This document shows, piece after piece, positions 25,813-39,794 of a DNA stretch of 64,000 bases. The first letter of the stretch is position 1; the number at the start of each line of letters is the position of its first letter. The translations under genes were made by a program, and so were the position numbers. The notes beneath the pieces are model-generated. The model worked only from the letters and a program-made list of their open reading frames with translations. It made no database searches and was not told where the DNA came from. This DNA comes from Curvularia clavata (Eukaryota), in the NCBI GenBank assembly GCA_023920165.1, contig CP089274.1:1-64000 (forward strand). Reading direction: 5' to 3'.

Positions 25813-27976
25813 TCAGCTGTTACTCTTGGAAACATCCTTCCTATTCTTATGCTCGGTTTCCAATCGCACCGCGGTATGATTGGTAAGATACTCGGATGGA
25901 TCGAACATTGTCAGAGCCAGTATAATGGCAATTACATTGAAAGGAATAGTACAGTATGAAATCATCCTGAACCCCTTCGCATATACATCTCGAAGTGCCT
26001 GAATCGAGGCAGCCTCAACCGCAGGAGTGATCCCAGGAACTGTGGCGAACGCGCCAGGGACGCCGGCAGCATTTTTGATGGTCGCGCCGATCAGATGGCT
26101 GATGTTAGCTGGATCGTATTGTCCGGTTGAATGAGCGGCTTTCGCGATAGCGCTACCCAAGTTGTCGTTCACAATATTGTTCAGTATAGTGTTGAAAATC
26201 GCGTTTCCCACACTACCGCCCATACTTCGGAATGTGCCGATGAGGCCCAATGCTAGACCTAGATATTGTAGTGGAATATTCACACCAGCTGCGACATAGC
26301 ATAAGACTACAATCCACGAGAAAGGGCCTAGTATGAAGACCTGCAATGCGGACCAGGCATATACCTTCTTTGGAACTACAGCAGCCAGTACAGCACAGAA
26401 TATAGTCTGTATTGTGCATGCTGTAATCATTTGAGTCTTTAAGCGCTTGAATTTACCTAAGAGTGCCGTGACCATAGCCCCGAACACGAACTGTAAGATG
26501 TAAGTAACCGATGGAACCACTATCTATAGATTATTCATACCTGAGAGATTCCATTCGGTAGCGCAATCAATCCGATTTGAATTGGATCATTCGTATACAT
26601 AAATAGGGAGCCTTGCGGGAGGAGAGCGATTAATGAGTAGAAGTTGATGCCAGCATGTATATTAGCGATCGCAAGGTAAAAACGTGGACTCCGTCGGACT
26701 CACCAGCCACGAATGTGATGCCAAGCAGAACTGTGTACTCCCTGAACTTCTTGAATATCTTCAAGGGAAAAAGCGGTTGCTTGGCCCATACAAAATCGTA
26801 AACAAAGGCAGAAAGGAGTACTGTGAACCCTAAAACTACGGGAATGATGACAGAAGCACTCCGCCATGGATGCCCAGCCCCACCAGCCCAGGTCAACCCT
26901 ATCAGGAAGGTAGTCAATCCGCTTGAATATAGACTGACGCCAACAAAGTCTATATCTTTGAACTCTTGCCATCTGGTTTTTTCAATATCATACTGTGGTC
27001 GTGGGGGTGGAAAGTAGAATATGAGTATTCCGACTGAGCTGACGACACAGGAGATTAGACCCCAATAGTAGCACCAGCGCCATCCGAGAGCAGTATGAGC
27101 GTTCACGCTCGTTGCAATCAGTACACTGGGTATACCAAACGGCCTGAAGTCAAAGTATTGTCAATTTCTTTGTTGCGTCTAGGAGGATAAGAGAACGTAC
27201 TGTGATTCTCAGTCAACCAAATGAACCAATCGTGCTGCAAGATCTATACTCACCACGTTGATTGCAAATTCAATTGCCGCCAGACCGGTGCCACTATCAC
27301 TATGTTAGCTGAATTCTCGAACTGAAAAGACTTCCAAGCCTACCGCCACTTGTTAGGAAGAATTTCGGATACGCCGGCGGCAGCAACGAAAATCATGCCT
27401 CCACCAAATCCCAGGAACGTTGACCCAGCAATAACATTAGTAACTGAGCTTGCTGTGGCTGCAACAATCTGTCATTACAGTGAGTGGGTCGTACCATGTC
27501 CTTGAAATCATTCTGGCCTACCGTTCCGATCAAGCAAAAAACCTGGCCACTGAGTATAGTCCACCGTCGTCCGAAGATATCACTGAAATTACCCGCTATG
27601 GCGAAGGATACAGATGACGCGATAGACCAACCTCCCACTAGCCAAGTAATTCTGTTCGTTTCTCCAAGATCTTGACCTATTTGCGCAATCAGGGCGACAG
27701 GCAGTGCAAATCCACACGAAATTGGACAAACGTGGGATAATGCCAAGAACTGATTTGGTCAACTAAATATAGAGGTTGGTGTACGAGAGTACATACCATC
27801 ACGGCAAGAATGGTGCGAGCAGATGGTCTTTCGGCACGATCAGGATTTTCCTCCAGAGCTGCTCGGTGTGGATCGAGGAAGTCACTCGGCCTGCCATCGA
27901 TGCGCTCGGTCCTTTCGACTGAGGTTGCCCACAGCGGCTCCAGATGCTTTTCCTCTGCAGTAGCAATACTAGCCAT
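25813..27976 (-). CDS. MFS transporter, TRI12/DHA2-ARN-like efflux pump, multi-exon
   Basis: DPHRAALEENP; AGNFSDIFGRRW (motif A); LGWRWCYY; FYFPPPRPQYD; KTRWQEFKDIDFVG; GTFRSMGGSVG; YLTNHTAV. ATG at 27976. Confidence 0.9.
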
Positions 27977-28231
27977 CTTGATAGATTTTGTGTTCTGTGG
28001 GCAAAGAATCCACAACAAGTCTTCCCTGGTATTTAAAACTATGGCCTAAGTTTATATGATACTCTGTATCTATTGCGGAATGGCAAGAAGTATGATCCCT
28101 GATTATTATGTGGGACCTTTCGATGATCTAAAAGCTGCGTAGGGTTGATCAAATAAAAGTATGGGGACAGATTGATTCCATGAATCTAGTAGTTGACAAA
28201 GGACGGCTAAAAGTAGCGTGAGTTGAGTTCG

Positions 28232-28356
28232 AGCAGACGAGGGGGTGGGGGGACCGCTAACTTAGCTATGCAGAGTAGGTCAGGGTGGAGGTCGCCTGTT
28301 GACGTAGCGTAGATTCAATTTCAGCAGATGCGGGGGTGGGGGGCCGCCGTCTTAGC
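28232..28356 (+). promoter_or_regulatory. Duplicated G-rich motif in the divergent MFS/NmrA promoter
   Basis: AGCAGAcgaGGGGGTGGGGGGaCCGCtaaCTTAGC at 28232-28266 and AGCAGAtgcGGGGGTGGGGGG-CCGCcgtCTTAGC at 28323-28356. Confidence 0.7.
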
Positions 28357-36563: not shown

Positions 36564-37714
36564 TGTGATATTCATAAAGTCAGTTGTGCCTCGTTGATTG
36601 GTTTGGGCAAGCTAGGTCAACCCGACAGCTGTTGAGAGGTCGACGAAGGAAGCGCCGCAAAGCAATTCAGTGCGCACGTGCCTATTGTCAATGAAACAAA
36701 AAATCTGCCGAGACTGACAGCGCCTTCTTGGTGCTACACCACTTTCAACAGTTCAGCACAGGCAAATGCAGGATGACAGAGTCGATGTTCTTCCTGAGCC
36801 TGTAATTAGCGCATCCGGTGGTTTCCGGACCTTTCGTCGAACTAGCTCGCGTCTTCCGTGTCCATCAGAGCTGCATTTCGGCTCAGGGGAGGCTTCGGCA
36901 TCCCCACACTAAGCCAAAAAACACACCCTTGTTGAAAATCGCGATAATTAATCATCACGTGAAGAACGTTACCCATACACAACATTTTCGTGATTACCAA
37001 TCCTTGCTTGTAACTATCTTCCGTGATTTCTACGCTTTACTATGAGTCTTGCACACACCAGTAATGTCGCATATAAAGATAACGACTATAGTTCTATCAG
37101 TGATACAGCGCGCCATTACGGTGTTACATGTGGTATACCAGCCTACTGCCTCAAAAACACTGATGTTAGCTGTAGAGCACTAAGGAAATTTATTCAGTAC
37201 AGTCGCAGAAACAGTTAGTAGAAAAGGTTATCGAGAGGGTCGTTGGTGGCTTGGGCCACAAACGTGTAATAAATGCTCGGCAGTTCGCGAGGCGAATTAC
37301 GCAGCTGTGGGCGACACATGACCACTTCCCCGCCTGTTGAAACATAACCGACAGCCCCACATCCCGATATCTGATTCCGACTATTCAATTCACAGCCTTC
37401 TGCCACCCCCTCATCTAGTCAAACTTTCCTGCTGATGTATGGGTAAGAGCTAAGCTGTGGTCAGCGTGCTAGGATCAGCTTTCCCCACACTAGCTTTTTG
37501 GGGAAATCCTGAAGCTCTGTGACCCCGTTCCTCGAGTGAATGGCTATTTGCAATCGCCTTGAAGCTAGATATAAACGACCTAATGAACCTACTCTTCTAC
37601 TTGACTGATCATGCATTATCACATATGCTTTCGGTGTACAAGTGAATTGAATATCTGCATTCCCCTGCCCTAATCTCCAAGCACCATCTTTTCAACTCAA
37701 TTAGCACTTCCAAA

Positions 37715-39794
37715 ATGGCAAAGTCGATTGGAGGGATAGAGATCCTGTATACGCCGATGAAGCGAGAGCTAGACAATGTGTGGACTCCTTATGGTAAAGA
37801 GACGAAAGTTTTGCCAAGGGGATGGACGAAAGACGACGGCCGACGCCCACTTCCAGTTCCAATGATTTACGAGAAAGATCAGGAAATTCTGCTCAGAGAC
37901 GGAGTGAAGATATTTGCTGATGTTTTTCGTCCTATTGATTCTGATACCCACCCTGTACCAGCAATTCTTCCCTGGAGCATATACGGCAAATCTGGGACAG
38001 GTCGACAAAGCCTGGACATGTTACCGTGGAGGGTCGGCATACCGCGTAGCTGGACTAGCGGCCTGGAGAAGTGGGAAGCACCCGACCCAGCCGAGTGGAT
38101 CCAGCGAGGCTATGCGGTAGTCAATACTGACGCACGTGGAACTTTCCAATCGCAGGGAGATATGCCAGTCTACGGTACACAGGAGGGCCGTGATGGCTAT
38201 GACGCTATTGAGTGGATTGGTGTTCAGCCTTGGTGCAACGGTGCTGTGGGAATGGCTGGCAACTCTTGGCTGGGTTCTGCACAATGGTGAGTACTCATAA
38301 CACTAATATCACATATGTAGACTGTTCAAATGATTAAATCAATGATCCAGGTTTATCGGAGCAGAACAACCACCACACCTGAAGGCTTTGGCCCCATGGG
38401 AAGGGCTTGGAGATTATTTTCGCGAGTCTCTTTGCAGAGGAGGTATTCCAGATTATTCATTCTGGCATTTGTTGCTGTCTGAGTTTCAAGGAGGTAATCC
38501 ACCTTCACTCTTACGTGATGATCGCTAATGCATTAACTATTGAATAGGTTTGAATAATCGAGAACATGTAGAGGCTATGATCGACAAATACCCGCTATGG
38601 AATGCATATTGGGAAGATAAGCGACCCAAACTTTGGAAAATCAATGTTCCTCTCTATGCAACAGCAAGCTACTCGACTGGCCTGCACACCGAAGGAAGTC
38701 TCCGTGGCTATTTCCTTTCCTCATCAACTGAGAAGTGGTACGTTTTTATCGGGATCACATCTGCAGGCTTGTTCTACGTTATTGATATTTCTCAGGCTCC
38801 GCATCTCTTCAACTCAAGAGTGGCATGATATTTACCAGCCAAGGTACATTGACGAGCTGCAGATGTTTTTTGACAGATACTTGAAGGGCGTGAAAAATAG
38901 TTGGGAGGCTACACCACGGATGCGCTTAGCTTTGCTCGGCTATAATAAACCACCGGTAGTCGACCGTCCGATATCTAAACTCCCACCCGAAAATTTCGTG
39001 TGGCACACTTTCTATCTCGATGGACTTAGTTCGACACTACAGCGTCATCCAAGAATCGGCGAGCATACCTTAACGTACGATGCGGCAGTCCCATGGTCAT
39101 ACCCGCCGAATGAATATGCAGCATTTCGTTTGACATTCGACAAATACACGGAGCTATGCGGGTTCAGCAAAGCCAAGCTGTAAGATTACCTTCTCTTTGT
39201 GACTACAGAGATGGTTTAACATGAGTGCATGTTCCATGAATATGAAGAAATCACAAGGCATGGATTAAAGCTGACTGTACCATTAGATACATGTCCACGC
39301 CTGACCATGACGATATGGACGTCTATGTCGTGATTCGAAAATTGGATGAGAACGGAAAACTTTTGCAACATTTTAACATACCCTTCAGGGACCTGCCTCC
39401 AGACGTCTCAGAAAAAGACATACCTGGCGAGACCTACATGCGGTACATTGGGCCAAATGGTCGCCTCAGAGCTTCTCATCGTGCTGTCCAGAAAGAACCT
39501 GATTATCCTGACGAAAAGCTTCAGCTTCTTTCCCCAGCATACGTATGGCATCCACACGATAAGGTCGAAAAACTGAAACGAGACGAAGTAGTAGAACTAG
39601 AGATCATGCTCTGGGCCGGAGGTATGATTTTTGAGAGCGGTGAATCACTCCGGTTTGATATACTTGGTCATGAACCCAGATGGCCGGAATTCGAATCTCT
39701 GGAAAAATCCCTGAAAAATTTCAACGTTGGGAGGCACAGAGTACATACGGGTGGAAAGTACATATCCAGCTTATCTGTAGCACTCTCGAATTAA
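37715..39794 (+). CDS. CocE/NonD family serine hydrolase (peptidase S15-like), multi-exon
   Basis: LRDGVKIFADVFRP, EKWEAPDPAEW..RGYAVVN.DARG, EGRDGYDAIEW...QPWCNG.VGMAGNSWLG (nucleophile elbow), C-terminal GRLRASHR; four introns. Confidence 0.92.

What the first reader, a model, noticed from the sequence alone, without database searches (positions are those of the whole stretch)
25813..39794. Self-contained, backbone-less five-gene cluster: efflux pump + reductase + FAD monooxygenase + TF + CocE hydrolase
Seen: the MFS pump and NmrA/isoflavone-reductase-like gene are divergent, the monooxygenase and TF converge with only ~73 bp between stops, and the TF and CocE/NonD hydrolase are divergent. 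All five splice to apparently intact frames, and no PKS, NRPS or terpene cyclase is in the window. Known: group A flavin hydroxylases (e.g. the MAK1 pterocarpan hydroxylase type), CocE-type ester/amide hydrolases and isoflavone-reductase-like proteins act on aromatic or plant-defence compounds. Inference: an undescribed inducible catabolic/detoxification pathway (hydrolyse, hydroxylate, reduce, export) for an aromatic ester or amide, or a phytoalexin.
Basis: partly seen in the sequence, partly recalled or inferred. Interest (0 to 1): 0.75.

Follow-up and report, generated by a model that had tools for sequence, protein, structure and literature searches.

The report
Small fungal detox-type gene neighbourhood
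Five neighbouring genes of a Bipolaris-like plant fungus (pump, reductase, flavin oxygenase, regulator, esterase-like protein) look like one of the many uncharacterised "degradative" gene clusters of fungi; only the oxygenase-esterase pair has evidence of linkage in other fungi, and its substrate is unknown.

Summary
Four give intact proteins with ordinary GT-AG introns. The pump does not: a full-length protein needs a nested twin intron and an intron ending in TG. The esterase-like protein keeps its serine nucleophile. It has Ser where 72 of 85 fungal relatives, 51 of 51 prokaryotic relatives and the solved S. aureus homologue have His.

Support for a functional unit is partial. The oxygenase and hydrolase orthologues of Bipolaris victoriae are both listed on a contig of 13,352 bp. 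Their closest relatives in Dactylonectria macrodidyma and Aspergillus californicus also share a contig length, and both gene trees group these species. A G-rich box (GGGGGTGG) occurs six times in 64 kb, all inside the locus and five of them upstream of its genes. The regulator's only long relatives are in B. maydis, which is absent from both enzyme lists. The reductase and pump could not be tested for synteny.

Verdict: a plausible but ordinary candidate catabolic or detoxification cluster, with unknown substrate and reaction order. FMO + transporter + isoflavone-reductase clusters are already catalogued computationally.

The parts
25813..27976 (-). MFS efflux-pump gene (TRI12-like). Homology-guided exons: 27976-27797, 27749-27522, 27468-27344, 27293-27254, 27142-26704, 26650-26541, 26490-25813 (599 aa).
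   Evidence: Pfam TRI12/MFS_1 on three exon ORFs. Gap-free alignment to P0227 (48% identity in the query exon) and to P0233 across both odd junctions.
27143..27254 (-). Candidate [D1,2]/[A2,3] spliceosomal twin intron. Two canonical introns (27253-27200, 54 nt; 27200-27144, 57 nt) overlap by one G. The first is preceded by an exonic G and the second is followed by one.
   Evidence: Sequence. Only nested removal joins the 13-residue exon 4 in frame to exon 5 as the homologues require. The layout is as described in PMC5587772, section 14.
26651..26703 (-). 53-nt intron required by homology. It starts GTGAGT and has a CTAAT branch site, but ends in TG rather than AG. The next AG, 39 nt downstream, is in frame and would delete 13 conserved residues.
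27977..28562 (.). Divergent MFS-NmrA promoter. It holds a 40-nt direct repeat (28213-28252 and 28304-28343), and each copy ends in the G-box AGAYGMGGGGGTGG (28235, 28326).
28563..29529 (+). NmrA / isoflavone-reductase-like gene, exons 28563-29009 and 29065-29529 (303 aa).
   Evidence: Pfam NmrA 3.6e-20 on exon 1. PDB best hit PCBER 1qyc at 5.7e-6, with the PSxFG motif and a lysine aligned. Gene model. Exon 2 has no Pfam match.
31978..31991 (+). Two overlapping GGGGGTGG boxes about 280 bp upstream of the FMO ATG. CGGTGGTTT lies at 32064.
32271..33898 (+). FAD-dependent (group A) monooxygenase gene, 6 exons: 32271-32795, 32842-33004, 33053-33224, 33281-33454, 33512-33704, 33758-33898 (455 aa). 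The C-terminal tail is hydrophobic.
   Evidence: All junctions match the B. victoriae orthologue P0123. The GxGxxG, DG and GD motif residues are >=97% conserved among 88 sequences.
33972..36575 (-). Transcription-factor gene, 4 exons: 36575-36418, 36366-35325, 35274-35010, 34960-33972 (817 aa). It has two C2H2 fingers (the second split by intron 1), a Zn2Cys6 cluster and a long C-terminal region.
   Evidence: Pfam zf-C2H2 29.9 bits and Zn_clus 23.8 bits, both above cut-off; Fungal_trans is below cut-off.
36576..37714 (.). Divergent TF-hydrolase promoter. G-box AGATGAGGGGGTGG at 37403-37416 (- strand); CGGTGGTTT at 36816.
37715..39794 (+). CocE/NonD (S15) family hydrolase-like gene, 5 exons: 37715-38286, 38351-38493, 38548-38737, 38796-39179, 39287-39794 (598 aa). 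Ser184 is the nucleophile, and there is Ser at position 306 where the family has His.

Best explanation
This is an accessory, regulator-containing metabolic locus of a Bipolaris-like fungus that acts on a small exogenous (probably aromatic) compound.

Its conserved core is the membrane-anchored group A flavin monooxygenase plus the CocE/NonD-fold protein, with the hybrid C2H2 + Zn2Cys6 regulator lying between them. The isoflavone-reductase-like enzyme and the TRI12-like pump, which share a bidirectional promoter, are probably recruited to the same regulon.

Inferred mechanism:
1. The regulator activates the three promoter regions through a G-rich box.
2. The hydrolase-fold protein cleaves or binds an ester or amide.
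3. The FMO hydroxylates an activated ring, using NAD(P)H and O2.
4. The reductase reduces an enone, benzylic-ether or quinone-methide-type intermediate.
5. The pump exports substrate or product.

Shown here: gene identities, gene models, linkage of FMO and hydrolase in other fungi, and the shared motif. Inferred: co-regulation, every catalytic step, their order and the substrate.
For: 1. Families: Pfam. PDB relatives of the FMO are 4hb9, HpxO, NicC, SorC, TropB and salicylate hydroxylase. The hydrolase matches the S. aureus CocE/NonD hydrolase 3ib3 (1.7e-89 with P0003, 3.5e-81 with P0001). The reductase matches PCBER, isoeugenol synthase and isoflavone-reductase homologues.
2. Linkage: the B. 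victoriae orthologues of the hydrolase (P0001, 89% identity) and the FMO (P0123, 78%) are both listed on a contig of 13,352 bp. D. macrodidyma (P0026 and P0127, both 718,612 bp) and A. californicus (P0015 and P0138, both 408,971 bp) also share a contig length. That is 3 of the 15 species names I found in both hit lists (compared by hand).
3. In the hydrolase tree, window + B. victoriae is sister to D. macrodidyma (SH-aLRT 95), with A. californicus in the same clade (99). In the FMO tree the same species fall in one 12-row clade (95).
4. GGGGGTGG occurs 6 times against 0.72 expected, and 0 of 100 shuffles reach 6. All six lie between 27003 and 37410: five in the three upstream regions and one in an MFS exon. 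The 14-mer AGAYGMGGGGGTGG has 3 exact matches, all in the two divergent promoters.
5. FMO cofactor motifs and the hydrolase nucleophile are conserved.
Against: - The TF search found only 2 relatives of >=649 aa. Both are from B. maydis, which appears in neither enzyme list, and no long TF relative was found in B. victoriae. The regulator therefore does not simply track the enzymes.
- 12 of the 15 species shared by the two lists have hydrolase and FMO homologues on contigs of different length.
- Equal contig length is only a proxy for adjacency.
- NmrA and MFS have no synteny test at all.
- Shared 8-mers among the three promoters are no more numerous than for random segments (2 against a mean of 1.56). 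The G-box was found post hoc, two of its copies come from one local duplication, and parts of it also fit the loose CreA-type consensus (recalled).
- The hydrolase lacks the His conserved in 72 of 85 fungal and 51 of 51 prokaryotic relatives.
- The pump needs non-standard splicing.
- The neighbourhoods of the prokaryotic relatives examined (12 of 55 loci, ORFs within about 4 kb) hold no Pfam oxygenase family typical of aromatic catabolism. They hold ACP synthase, phosphate acyltransferase, acetate-kinase-like genes or lone regulators.
Confidence: 0.45

Rival explanations
1. Only the FMO-(TF)-hydrolase trio is a unit. The NmrA-MFS pair and the rest are a chance neighbourhood of gene families that are among the commonest in accessory regions of ascomycete genomes.
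For: - The same 64-kb window holds a second NmrA-like gene, two GNAT genes, two more alpha/beta hydrolases or esterases, a sulfatase and an amino-acid permease, so such families are dense here.
- A 2.7-kb stretch with no recognisable gene (29530-32270) separates NmrA from the FMO.
- There is no synteny evidence for NmrA or MFS.
- CGGTGGTTT occurs only at the FMO, the TF-hydrolase promoter and inside the hydrolase, not at the MFS-NmrA promoter.
Against: The G-box AGAYGMGGGGGTGG is shared exactly by the MFS-NmrA and TF-hydrolase promoters and occurs nowhere else in the window. GGGGGTGG is confined to the five-gene span.
Confidence: 0.3
2. A decaying relic: a once-functional accessory cluster that is now being lost in this lineage.
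For: - One pump intron ends in a non-AG dinucleotide, and the canonical alternative removes 13 conserved residues.
- The hydrolase has lost the family His.
- Among Bipolaris species, only B. victoriae appears in the listed FMO hits (101) and the listed hydrolase hits (best 120 of 824).
- A truncated carotenoid-oxygenase gene lies 5 kb downstream.
Against: - None of the five genes has an in-exon stop or frameshift over about 8.3 kb of coding sequence.
- The His306 loss is shared by a whole subclade: 10 of the 12 sequences that lack His306 carry His312. That looks like a lineage trait rather than recent decay.
- The twin intron is a known functional arrangement (PMC5587772).
Confidence: 0.15
3. 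A small backbone-less biosynthetic cluster of the kojic-acid kind, which makes and exports a metabolite from a primary precursor rather than degrading an external one.
For: The composition (FAD oxidoreductase + Zn2Cys6 regulator + MFS exporter, no PKS or NRPS) parallels kojA/kojR/kojT (abstract of PMC9410421 as shown in the search listing).
Against: - No sequence comparison with KojA was possible.
- The FMO's PDB relatives are mainly ring hydroxylases of catabolic or tailoring type.
- By my reading of the species names, hydrolase and FMO relatives are frequent in black yeasts and plant-associated fungi.
Confidence: 0.1

Closest known systems
Candidate 'pterocarpan hydroxylase (PAH)' degradative gene clusters, model 3 (Gluck-Thaler and Slot, bioRxiv 10.1101/184242; section 9 read)
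   Same: A flavin monooxygenase clustered with at least one transporter and an isoflavone-reductase homologue, predicted to degrade plant phenylpropanoids or flavonoids. These clusters are widely and patchily distributed in Pezizomycotina (133 clusters in 94 species).
   Different: - Membership was not tested: there was no MAK1 sequence, the bioRxiv supplements are closed, and the ISME J version is not held.
- The text read does not mention a CocE/NonD hydrolase or a C2H2 + Zn2Cys6 regulator in model 3.
- Those clusters are themselves computational predictions without a known substrate.
Kojic acid cluster kojA-kojR-kojT of Aspergillus oryzae/flavus (abstract of PMC9410421 as shown in the search listing)
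   Same: A small cluster without a PKS or NRPS backbone, holding an oxidoreductase, a cluster-specific regulator and an MFS transporter.
   Different: It is biosynthetic, has three genes and has no hydrolase or reductase. Relatedness of the enzymes was not tested.
FDB1/FDB2 benzoxazolinone-detoxification clusters of Fusarium verticillioides (abstract of PMC10512309 as shown in the search listings)
   Same: Inducible clusters that let a cereal pathogen convert a host defence compound into non-toxic products.
   Different: No sequence comparison was made, and I did not read that paper's gene lists.
CocE/NonD family hydrolase of Staphylococcus aureus (PDB 3ib3/3iii) and cocaine esterase CocE (1ju3 and others)
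   Same: Full-length alignment to 3ib3 (E 1.7e-89 with P0003, 3.5e-81 with P0001). The S15 alpha/beta domain plus the PepX_C domain and the serine nucleophile are conserved.
   Different: 3ib3 has His at the end of strand beta-8, where the window protein has Ser. CocE aligns only over the N-terminal ~160 residues (E ~1e-17 to 1e-19). The depositors' name for 3ib3 gives only the family; I know of no assigned substrate (recalled).
[D1,2]/[A2,3] stwintron of the Trichoderma reesei DHA1 transporter gene (PMC5587772; abstract and section 14 read)
   Same: Two alternative internal introns overlap by one G. The 5' one is preceded by an exonic G and the 3' one is followed by an exonic G. The host gene is also an MFS drug:H+ antiporter-type gene.
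   Different: The gene is different (TRI12-like rather than DHA1). Here the arrangement is only predicted from sequence and homology, with no cDNA.

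Membership tests
Group A flavoprotein monooxygenase (Pfam FAD_binding_3) | N-terminal GxGxxG dinucleotide fold, DG motif and GD motif; single-component enzyme | tested here: met
   G13, G15, G18, A169/G171, G335/D336 are >=97% conserved in 88 aligned sequences. Pfam PF01494: 26.9 bits on exon 1 and 69.2 bits on orthologue P0123. 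PDB hits are 4hb9 at 3.4e-27, then HpxO, NicC, SorC, TropB and salicylate hydroxylase.
MAK1-type pterocarpan hydroxylase | Orthology to Nectria haematococca MAK1; hydroxylation of maackiain/medicarpin | not tested
No MAK1 sequence was available in any tool used.
CocE/NonD (peptidase S15) hydrolases | S15 alpha/beta-hydrolase domain plus C-terminal PepX_C domain | tested here: met
   Pfam Peptidase_S15 8.8e-30 and PepX_C 1.1e-12 on window exons. Both domains are found on orthologue P0001. 3ib3 aligns over the full length.
CocE/NonD (peptidase S15) hydrolases | Serine nucleophile at the elbow after strand beta-5 | tested here: met
   S184 in GNSWLG is >=97% conserved among 85 sequences. It follows strand 125-133 of the P0001 model and is Ser in 51 of 51 prokaryotic relatives.
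CocE/NonD (peptidase S15) hydrolases | Catalytic histidine in the loop after strand beta-8 | tested here: not met
   Position 306, at the end of strand 252-257 of the P0001 model, is Ser in the window and Cys in B. victoriae. It is His in 72 of 85 fungal relatives, in 3ib3 and in 51 of 51 prokaryotic relatives. A His six residues on (H312) is present in 10 of the 12 sequences that lack H306. Whether it substitutes is unknown. That position 306 is the catalytic His is inferred from fold topology, not shown.
Isoflavone-reductase-like (PIP) / NmrA-like family | Rossmann GxxGxxG, PSxFG motif and the conserved lysine downstream | tested here: met
   The GASGKLG and PSDFG motifs and a Lys align to the Lys of the PCBER 1qyc motif (the role of that Lys is recalled). 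Pfam NmrA 73.2 bits.
Isoflavone-reductase-like (PIP) / NmrA-like family | C-terminal substrate-binding half recognisable as the family | tested here: inconclusive
   Exon 2 (154 aa) has no Pfam NmrA match at E<=1. It aligns only weakly (27% over 67 aa) to the second NmrA-like gene of the window.
TRI12-like MFS efflux pumps | Full-length transporter ORF obtainable from the gene | tested here: inconclusive
   Pfam TRI12 matches three exon ORFs. The homology model of 599 aa aligns without gaps at both odd junctions to P0233. It needs a twin intron and a non-AG acceptor; the canonical-only model loses 26 conserved residues.
Zn2Cys6 fungal transcription factors | CX2CX6CX5-12CX2CX6-8C cluster; fungal-specific middle domain | tested here: met
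   Zn_clus 23.5-23.8 bits against a cut-off of 21, and the six-Cys spacing can be read in the sequence. Fungal_trans reaches only 15.7 bits, below its cut-off of 23. In addition there are two canonical C2H2 fingers (zf-C2H2 29.9 bits against 25.2).
Fungal metabolic gene cluster | Conserved co-localisation of the member genes in other genomes | tested here: inconclusive
   FMO and hydrolase share a contig length in 3 of 15 shared species, including a 13,352-bp contig in B. victoriae. TF relatives were found only in B. maydis.
Fungal metabolic gene cluster | Co-expression and one shared pathway | not testable with these tools
   Only indirect evidence: the shared G-box.
[D1,2]/[A2,3] stwintron | Two canonical U2 introns overlapping by one G, flanked by exonic G on both sides; either order of removal gives the same mRNA | tested here: met
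   GTGAGT...CACAG (27253-27200) and GTACGT...TTCAG (27200-27144), with exonic G at 27254 and at 27143. The definition is from PMC5587772, section 14. Splicing intermediates are not testable here.

The most novel reading that the evidence does not exclude
The FMO-regulator-hydrolase core is a laterally mobile detoxification module shared by distant plant-associated fungi (Bipolaris, Dactylonectria, Aspergillus). Its CocE-fold enzyme has moved its catalytic histidine (306 to 312) and so gained a new ester or amide specificity for a host defence compound. A hybrid C2H2 + Zn2Cys6 regulator reads the G-rich box to switch on all five genes.
Probability: 0.12. Interest if true: 0.65.

Novelty: new member of a known kind. 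Interest (0 to 1): 0.35.

Why it matters
If the five genes are one regulon acting on a cereal defence compound, the locus would be a tolerance factor of a crop pathogen and a source of new enzymes. The most unusual would be a CocE-fold hydrolase with a displaced histidine. As it stands it is one of more than a thousand uncharacterised candidate degradative clusters in fungi, and nothing ties it to a substrate. The most concrete new items are structural: a predicted alternatively spliced twin intron in the pump gene, and a hydrolase subclade that lacks the family histidine.

Tried and rejected
1. Ab initio spliced-model scripts failed (timed out; one search was too crude). I replaced them with homology-guided models.
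I used contig-length coincidence instead.
3. Literature searches for a described cluster of this composition, or for a characterised fungal CocE/NonD enzyme, found nothing relevant in the listings:
- 'CocE, NmrA, monooxygenase, gene cluster, fungal'
- 'cocaine esterase, NmrA, FAD, transcription factor, phytoalexin'
- 'NonD, CocE, Aspergillus, Fusarium, esterase'
None of the listed papers held the term CocE, NonD or 'cocaine esterase'.
4. The ISME J version of Gluck-Thaler and Slot and its supplements are not held, and bioRxiv supplements are closed. They may list this very locus.
5. The generic test for k-mers shared by the promoters was not above random. CGGTGGTTT has 3 exact hits, but one lies inside the hydrolase coding sequence, so it is a weak lead.
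6. Prokaryotic neighbourhoods of hydrolase relatives (12 of 55 loci, ORFs within about 4 kb) gave no hint of aromatic catabolism.
7. Pfam at E<=1 on the unexplained ORFs next to the locus found nothing convincing: 20676-23571, 40725-41780 and 46079-47551, and three ORFs of the 29.5-32.3 kb gap.
8. Rfam found no match in the window.
9. Micro-exon solutions for the pump junction and a 38-nt GC-AG intron were rejected. They have weak sites, and they add or replace residues against the homologues.
10. The AlphaFold model of orthologue P0001 (pLDDT 83) was used only for strand positions.

Full report
**What is there**

The window is fungal: the genes have short GT-AG introns. The best protein hits are to Bipolaris victoriae FI3 and B. 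maydis, so I infer that the source is a Bipolaris-like member of the Pleosporales. No hit was identical to the window's own proteins.

Pfam on the exon ORFs confirms the five families at the stated places:
- TRI12/MFS on the - strand
- NmrA on the + strand
- FAD_binding_3 on the + strand
- Zn_clus on the - strand
- Peptidase_S15 + PepX_C on the + strand

The orientations and the 73-bp gap between the FMO and TF stops (33899-33971) are exactly as described. No PKS, NRPS or terpene-cyclase family was hit among the ORFs scanned: 21, 35 and 17, out of 132 ORFs of >=90 aa.

**Gene models**

I built the models with homologues fetched.
- Hydrolase: 598 aa, 5 exons.
- FMO: 455 aa, 6 exons. Every junction matches the B. 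victoriae orthologue P0123, including a 48-nt intron that leaves the frame open if retained.
- TF: 817 aa, 4 exons.
- NmrA-like: 303 aa, 2 exons.

Exon 1 encodes a C2H2 finger and the first half of a second finger, which is completed after intron 1. The Zn2Cys6 cluster follows.

**The pump gene is the exception**

Homologues P0227 and P0233 align without gaps through a 13-residue exon 4 and into exon 5, but no single GT-AG intron joins these two exons in frame. The 110 nt between them consist of two canonical introns that overlap by one G:
- 27253-27200, preceded by an exonic G
- 27200-27144, followed by an exonic G

Removing either one first creates the splice site needed to remove the rest, and both orders give the homology-predicted junction. 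This is the [D1,2]/[A2,3] stwintron layout shown experimentally in a Trichoderma reesei transporter gene (PMC5587772, abstract and section 14).

One exon further on, homology requires a 53-nt intron with a good donor and branch site that ends in TG. The next AG is 39 nt downstream and in frame, but using it would delete 13 conserved residues. With canonical sites only, the pump is 573 aa and lacks 26 conserved residues. The homology model is 599 aa. There are no in-exon stops. Whether the pump is functional cannot be decided without cDNA.

**The enzymes**

The FMO has the three cofactor motifs of group A flavin monooxygenases, conserved among 88 aligned sequences. Its closest solved relatives are mainly ring hydroxylases.

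The reductase has the Rossmann motif, the PSxFG motif and an aligned lysine of the isoflavone-reductase / PCBER family. Its C-terminal half is not recognised by Pfam.

The hydrolase aligns over its full length to the S. aureus CocE/NonD hydrolase 3ib3 and keeps the serine nucleophile. At position 306, however, the window protein has Ser and the B. victoriae protein has Cys. This position is:
- the end of strand beta-8 in an AlphaFold model of the orthologue (pLDDT 83)
- His in 72 of 85 fungal relatives
- His in 3ib3
- His in 51 of 51 prokaryotic relatives

Ten of the 12 sequences that lack His306 have a His six residues later. The window protein's closest relatives belong to this subclade, including the D. 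macrodidyma protein. Esterase activity is therefore plausible but not assured.

**Is it a cluster?**

In favour:
- The B. victoriae orthologues of the hydrolase (89% identity) and the FMO (78%) are both recorded on a contig of 13,352 bp. The D. macrodidyma pair (718,612 bp) and the A. californicus pair (408,971 bp) also share a contig length.
- That is 3 of the 15 species names present in both lists. Contigs of 0.4-0.7 Mb are roughly 1-2% of an ascomycete genome (my own knowledge), so two such coincidences by chance are unlikely.
- Quick IQ-TREE trees place the window + B. victoriae hydrolase as sister to D. macrodidyma (SH-aLRT 95). The FMO falls in a 12-row clade (95) with D. macrodidyma and the Aspergillus sequences (37 and 41 rows chosen by hand from the hit lists).
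- GGGGGTGG occurs six times in the window against 0.72 expected, and 0 of 100 shuffles reach six. All six lie within 27003-37410: two in the MFS-NmrA promoter (inside a 40-nt direct repeat), two about 280 bp upstream of the FMO, one in the TF-hydrolase promoter and one in a pump exon. The longer AGAYGMGGGGGTGG matches exactly three times, only in the two divergent promoters.

Against:
- The TF search returned only two proteins of >=649 aa, both from B. maydis (59-63% identity in the query exon). B. maydis appears in neither enzyme list, and no long TF relative was found in B. victoriae.
- 12 of the 15 shared species show different contig lengths.
- The motif was found post hoc, and the generic shared-k-mer count was not above random.

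**Context and comparison**

Prokaryotic relatives of the hydrolase (35-43% identity; 55 loci, mostly gut anaerobes and lactobacilli) sit next to holo-ACP synthase, phosphate acyltransferase and acetate-kinase-like genes, each found in 4 of the 12 loci examined. Elsewhere they sit next to AraC, TetR or LysR regulators. None of these neighbours suggests aromatic catabolism.

The nearest described kind is the 'pterocarpan hydroxylase' class of candidate degradative clusters. Its model 3 contains a transporter and an isoflavone-reductase homologue (bioRxiv 10.1101/184242, section 9). I could not test membership or see whether this locus is in that catalogue (supplements closed). The kojic acid cluster is the textbook backbone-less analogue (abstract as shown in the listing).

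**Verdict**

This is a new, uncharacterised member of a known kind, with an FMO-hydrolase core that has some cross-lineage linkage. Interest is moderate to low. The side findings (the twin intron and the displaced histidine) are the most concrete new facts.

Noticed in passing
window 27143-27254 (- strand): Predicted [D1,2]/[A2,3] spliceosomal twin intron in the TRI12-like pump gene: two canonical introns of 54 and 57 nt overlap by one G. It is needed to join a 13-residue exon in frame.
   Followed up: yes
window 26651-26703 (- strand): A pump intron demanded by homology ends in TG instead of AG. An in-frame AG 39 nt downstream would remove 13 conserved residues. This could be a non-canonical site, a recent defect or a sequence error.
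   Followed up: partly
window 38796-38830 (hydrolase residues about 303-313): The hydrolase subclade (window, B. victoriae, Cercospora, Alternaria, Colletotrichum, Dactylonectria and others) lacks the His found after strand beta-8 in most of the family. Nearly all of its members carry a His six residues later.
   Followed up: partly
window 36366-36575 (- strand): The regulator combines two C2H2 zinc fingers with a Zn2Cys6 cluster. The second finger is split by intron 1. The B. maydis annotation P0121 starts inside that intron.
   Followed up: partly
window 28213-28252 and 28304-28343: A 40-nt direct repeat (78% identical, 91 nt apart) in the MFS-NmrA bidirectional promoter. Each copy ends in the G-rich box.
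   Followed up: partly
window 43063-45530: A second NmrA-like gene (- strand, about 44100-43063) lies back-to-back with a carotenoid/stilbene-oxygenase (RPE65) ORF. That ORF covers only profile positions 245-469. The ~570 bp upstream of it show no match to the missing N-terminal half, so it looks like a truncated gene.
   Followed up: partly
loci L004, L009, L019, L041, L055 (around 7000-12500): In several prokaryotic relatives, the CocE/NonD homologue is flanked by holo-ACP synthase, phosphate acetyl/butyryl transferase and an acetate-kinase-like gene. This conserved neighbourhood hints at acyl-(thio)ester chemistry.
   Followed up: no
window 20157-20173, 20486-20512, 49802-49816: Long homopolymer C tracts (17, 27 and 15 nt) in intergenic DNA.
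   Followed up: no
window 40725-41780 (+): A 352-aa ORF with no convincing Pfam family lies just beyond the hydrolase. Its nearest ESM Atlas clusters are unnamed Ascomycota proteins. It carries no G-box.
   Followed up: partly
window 29530-32270: A 2.7-kb stretch with lower GC (about 42%) between NmrA and the FMO. Three of its ORFs were scanned and none has a Pfam family.
   Followed up: partly
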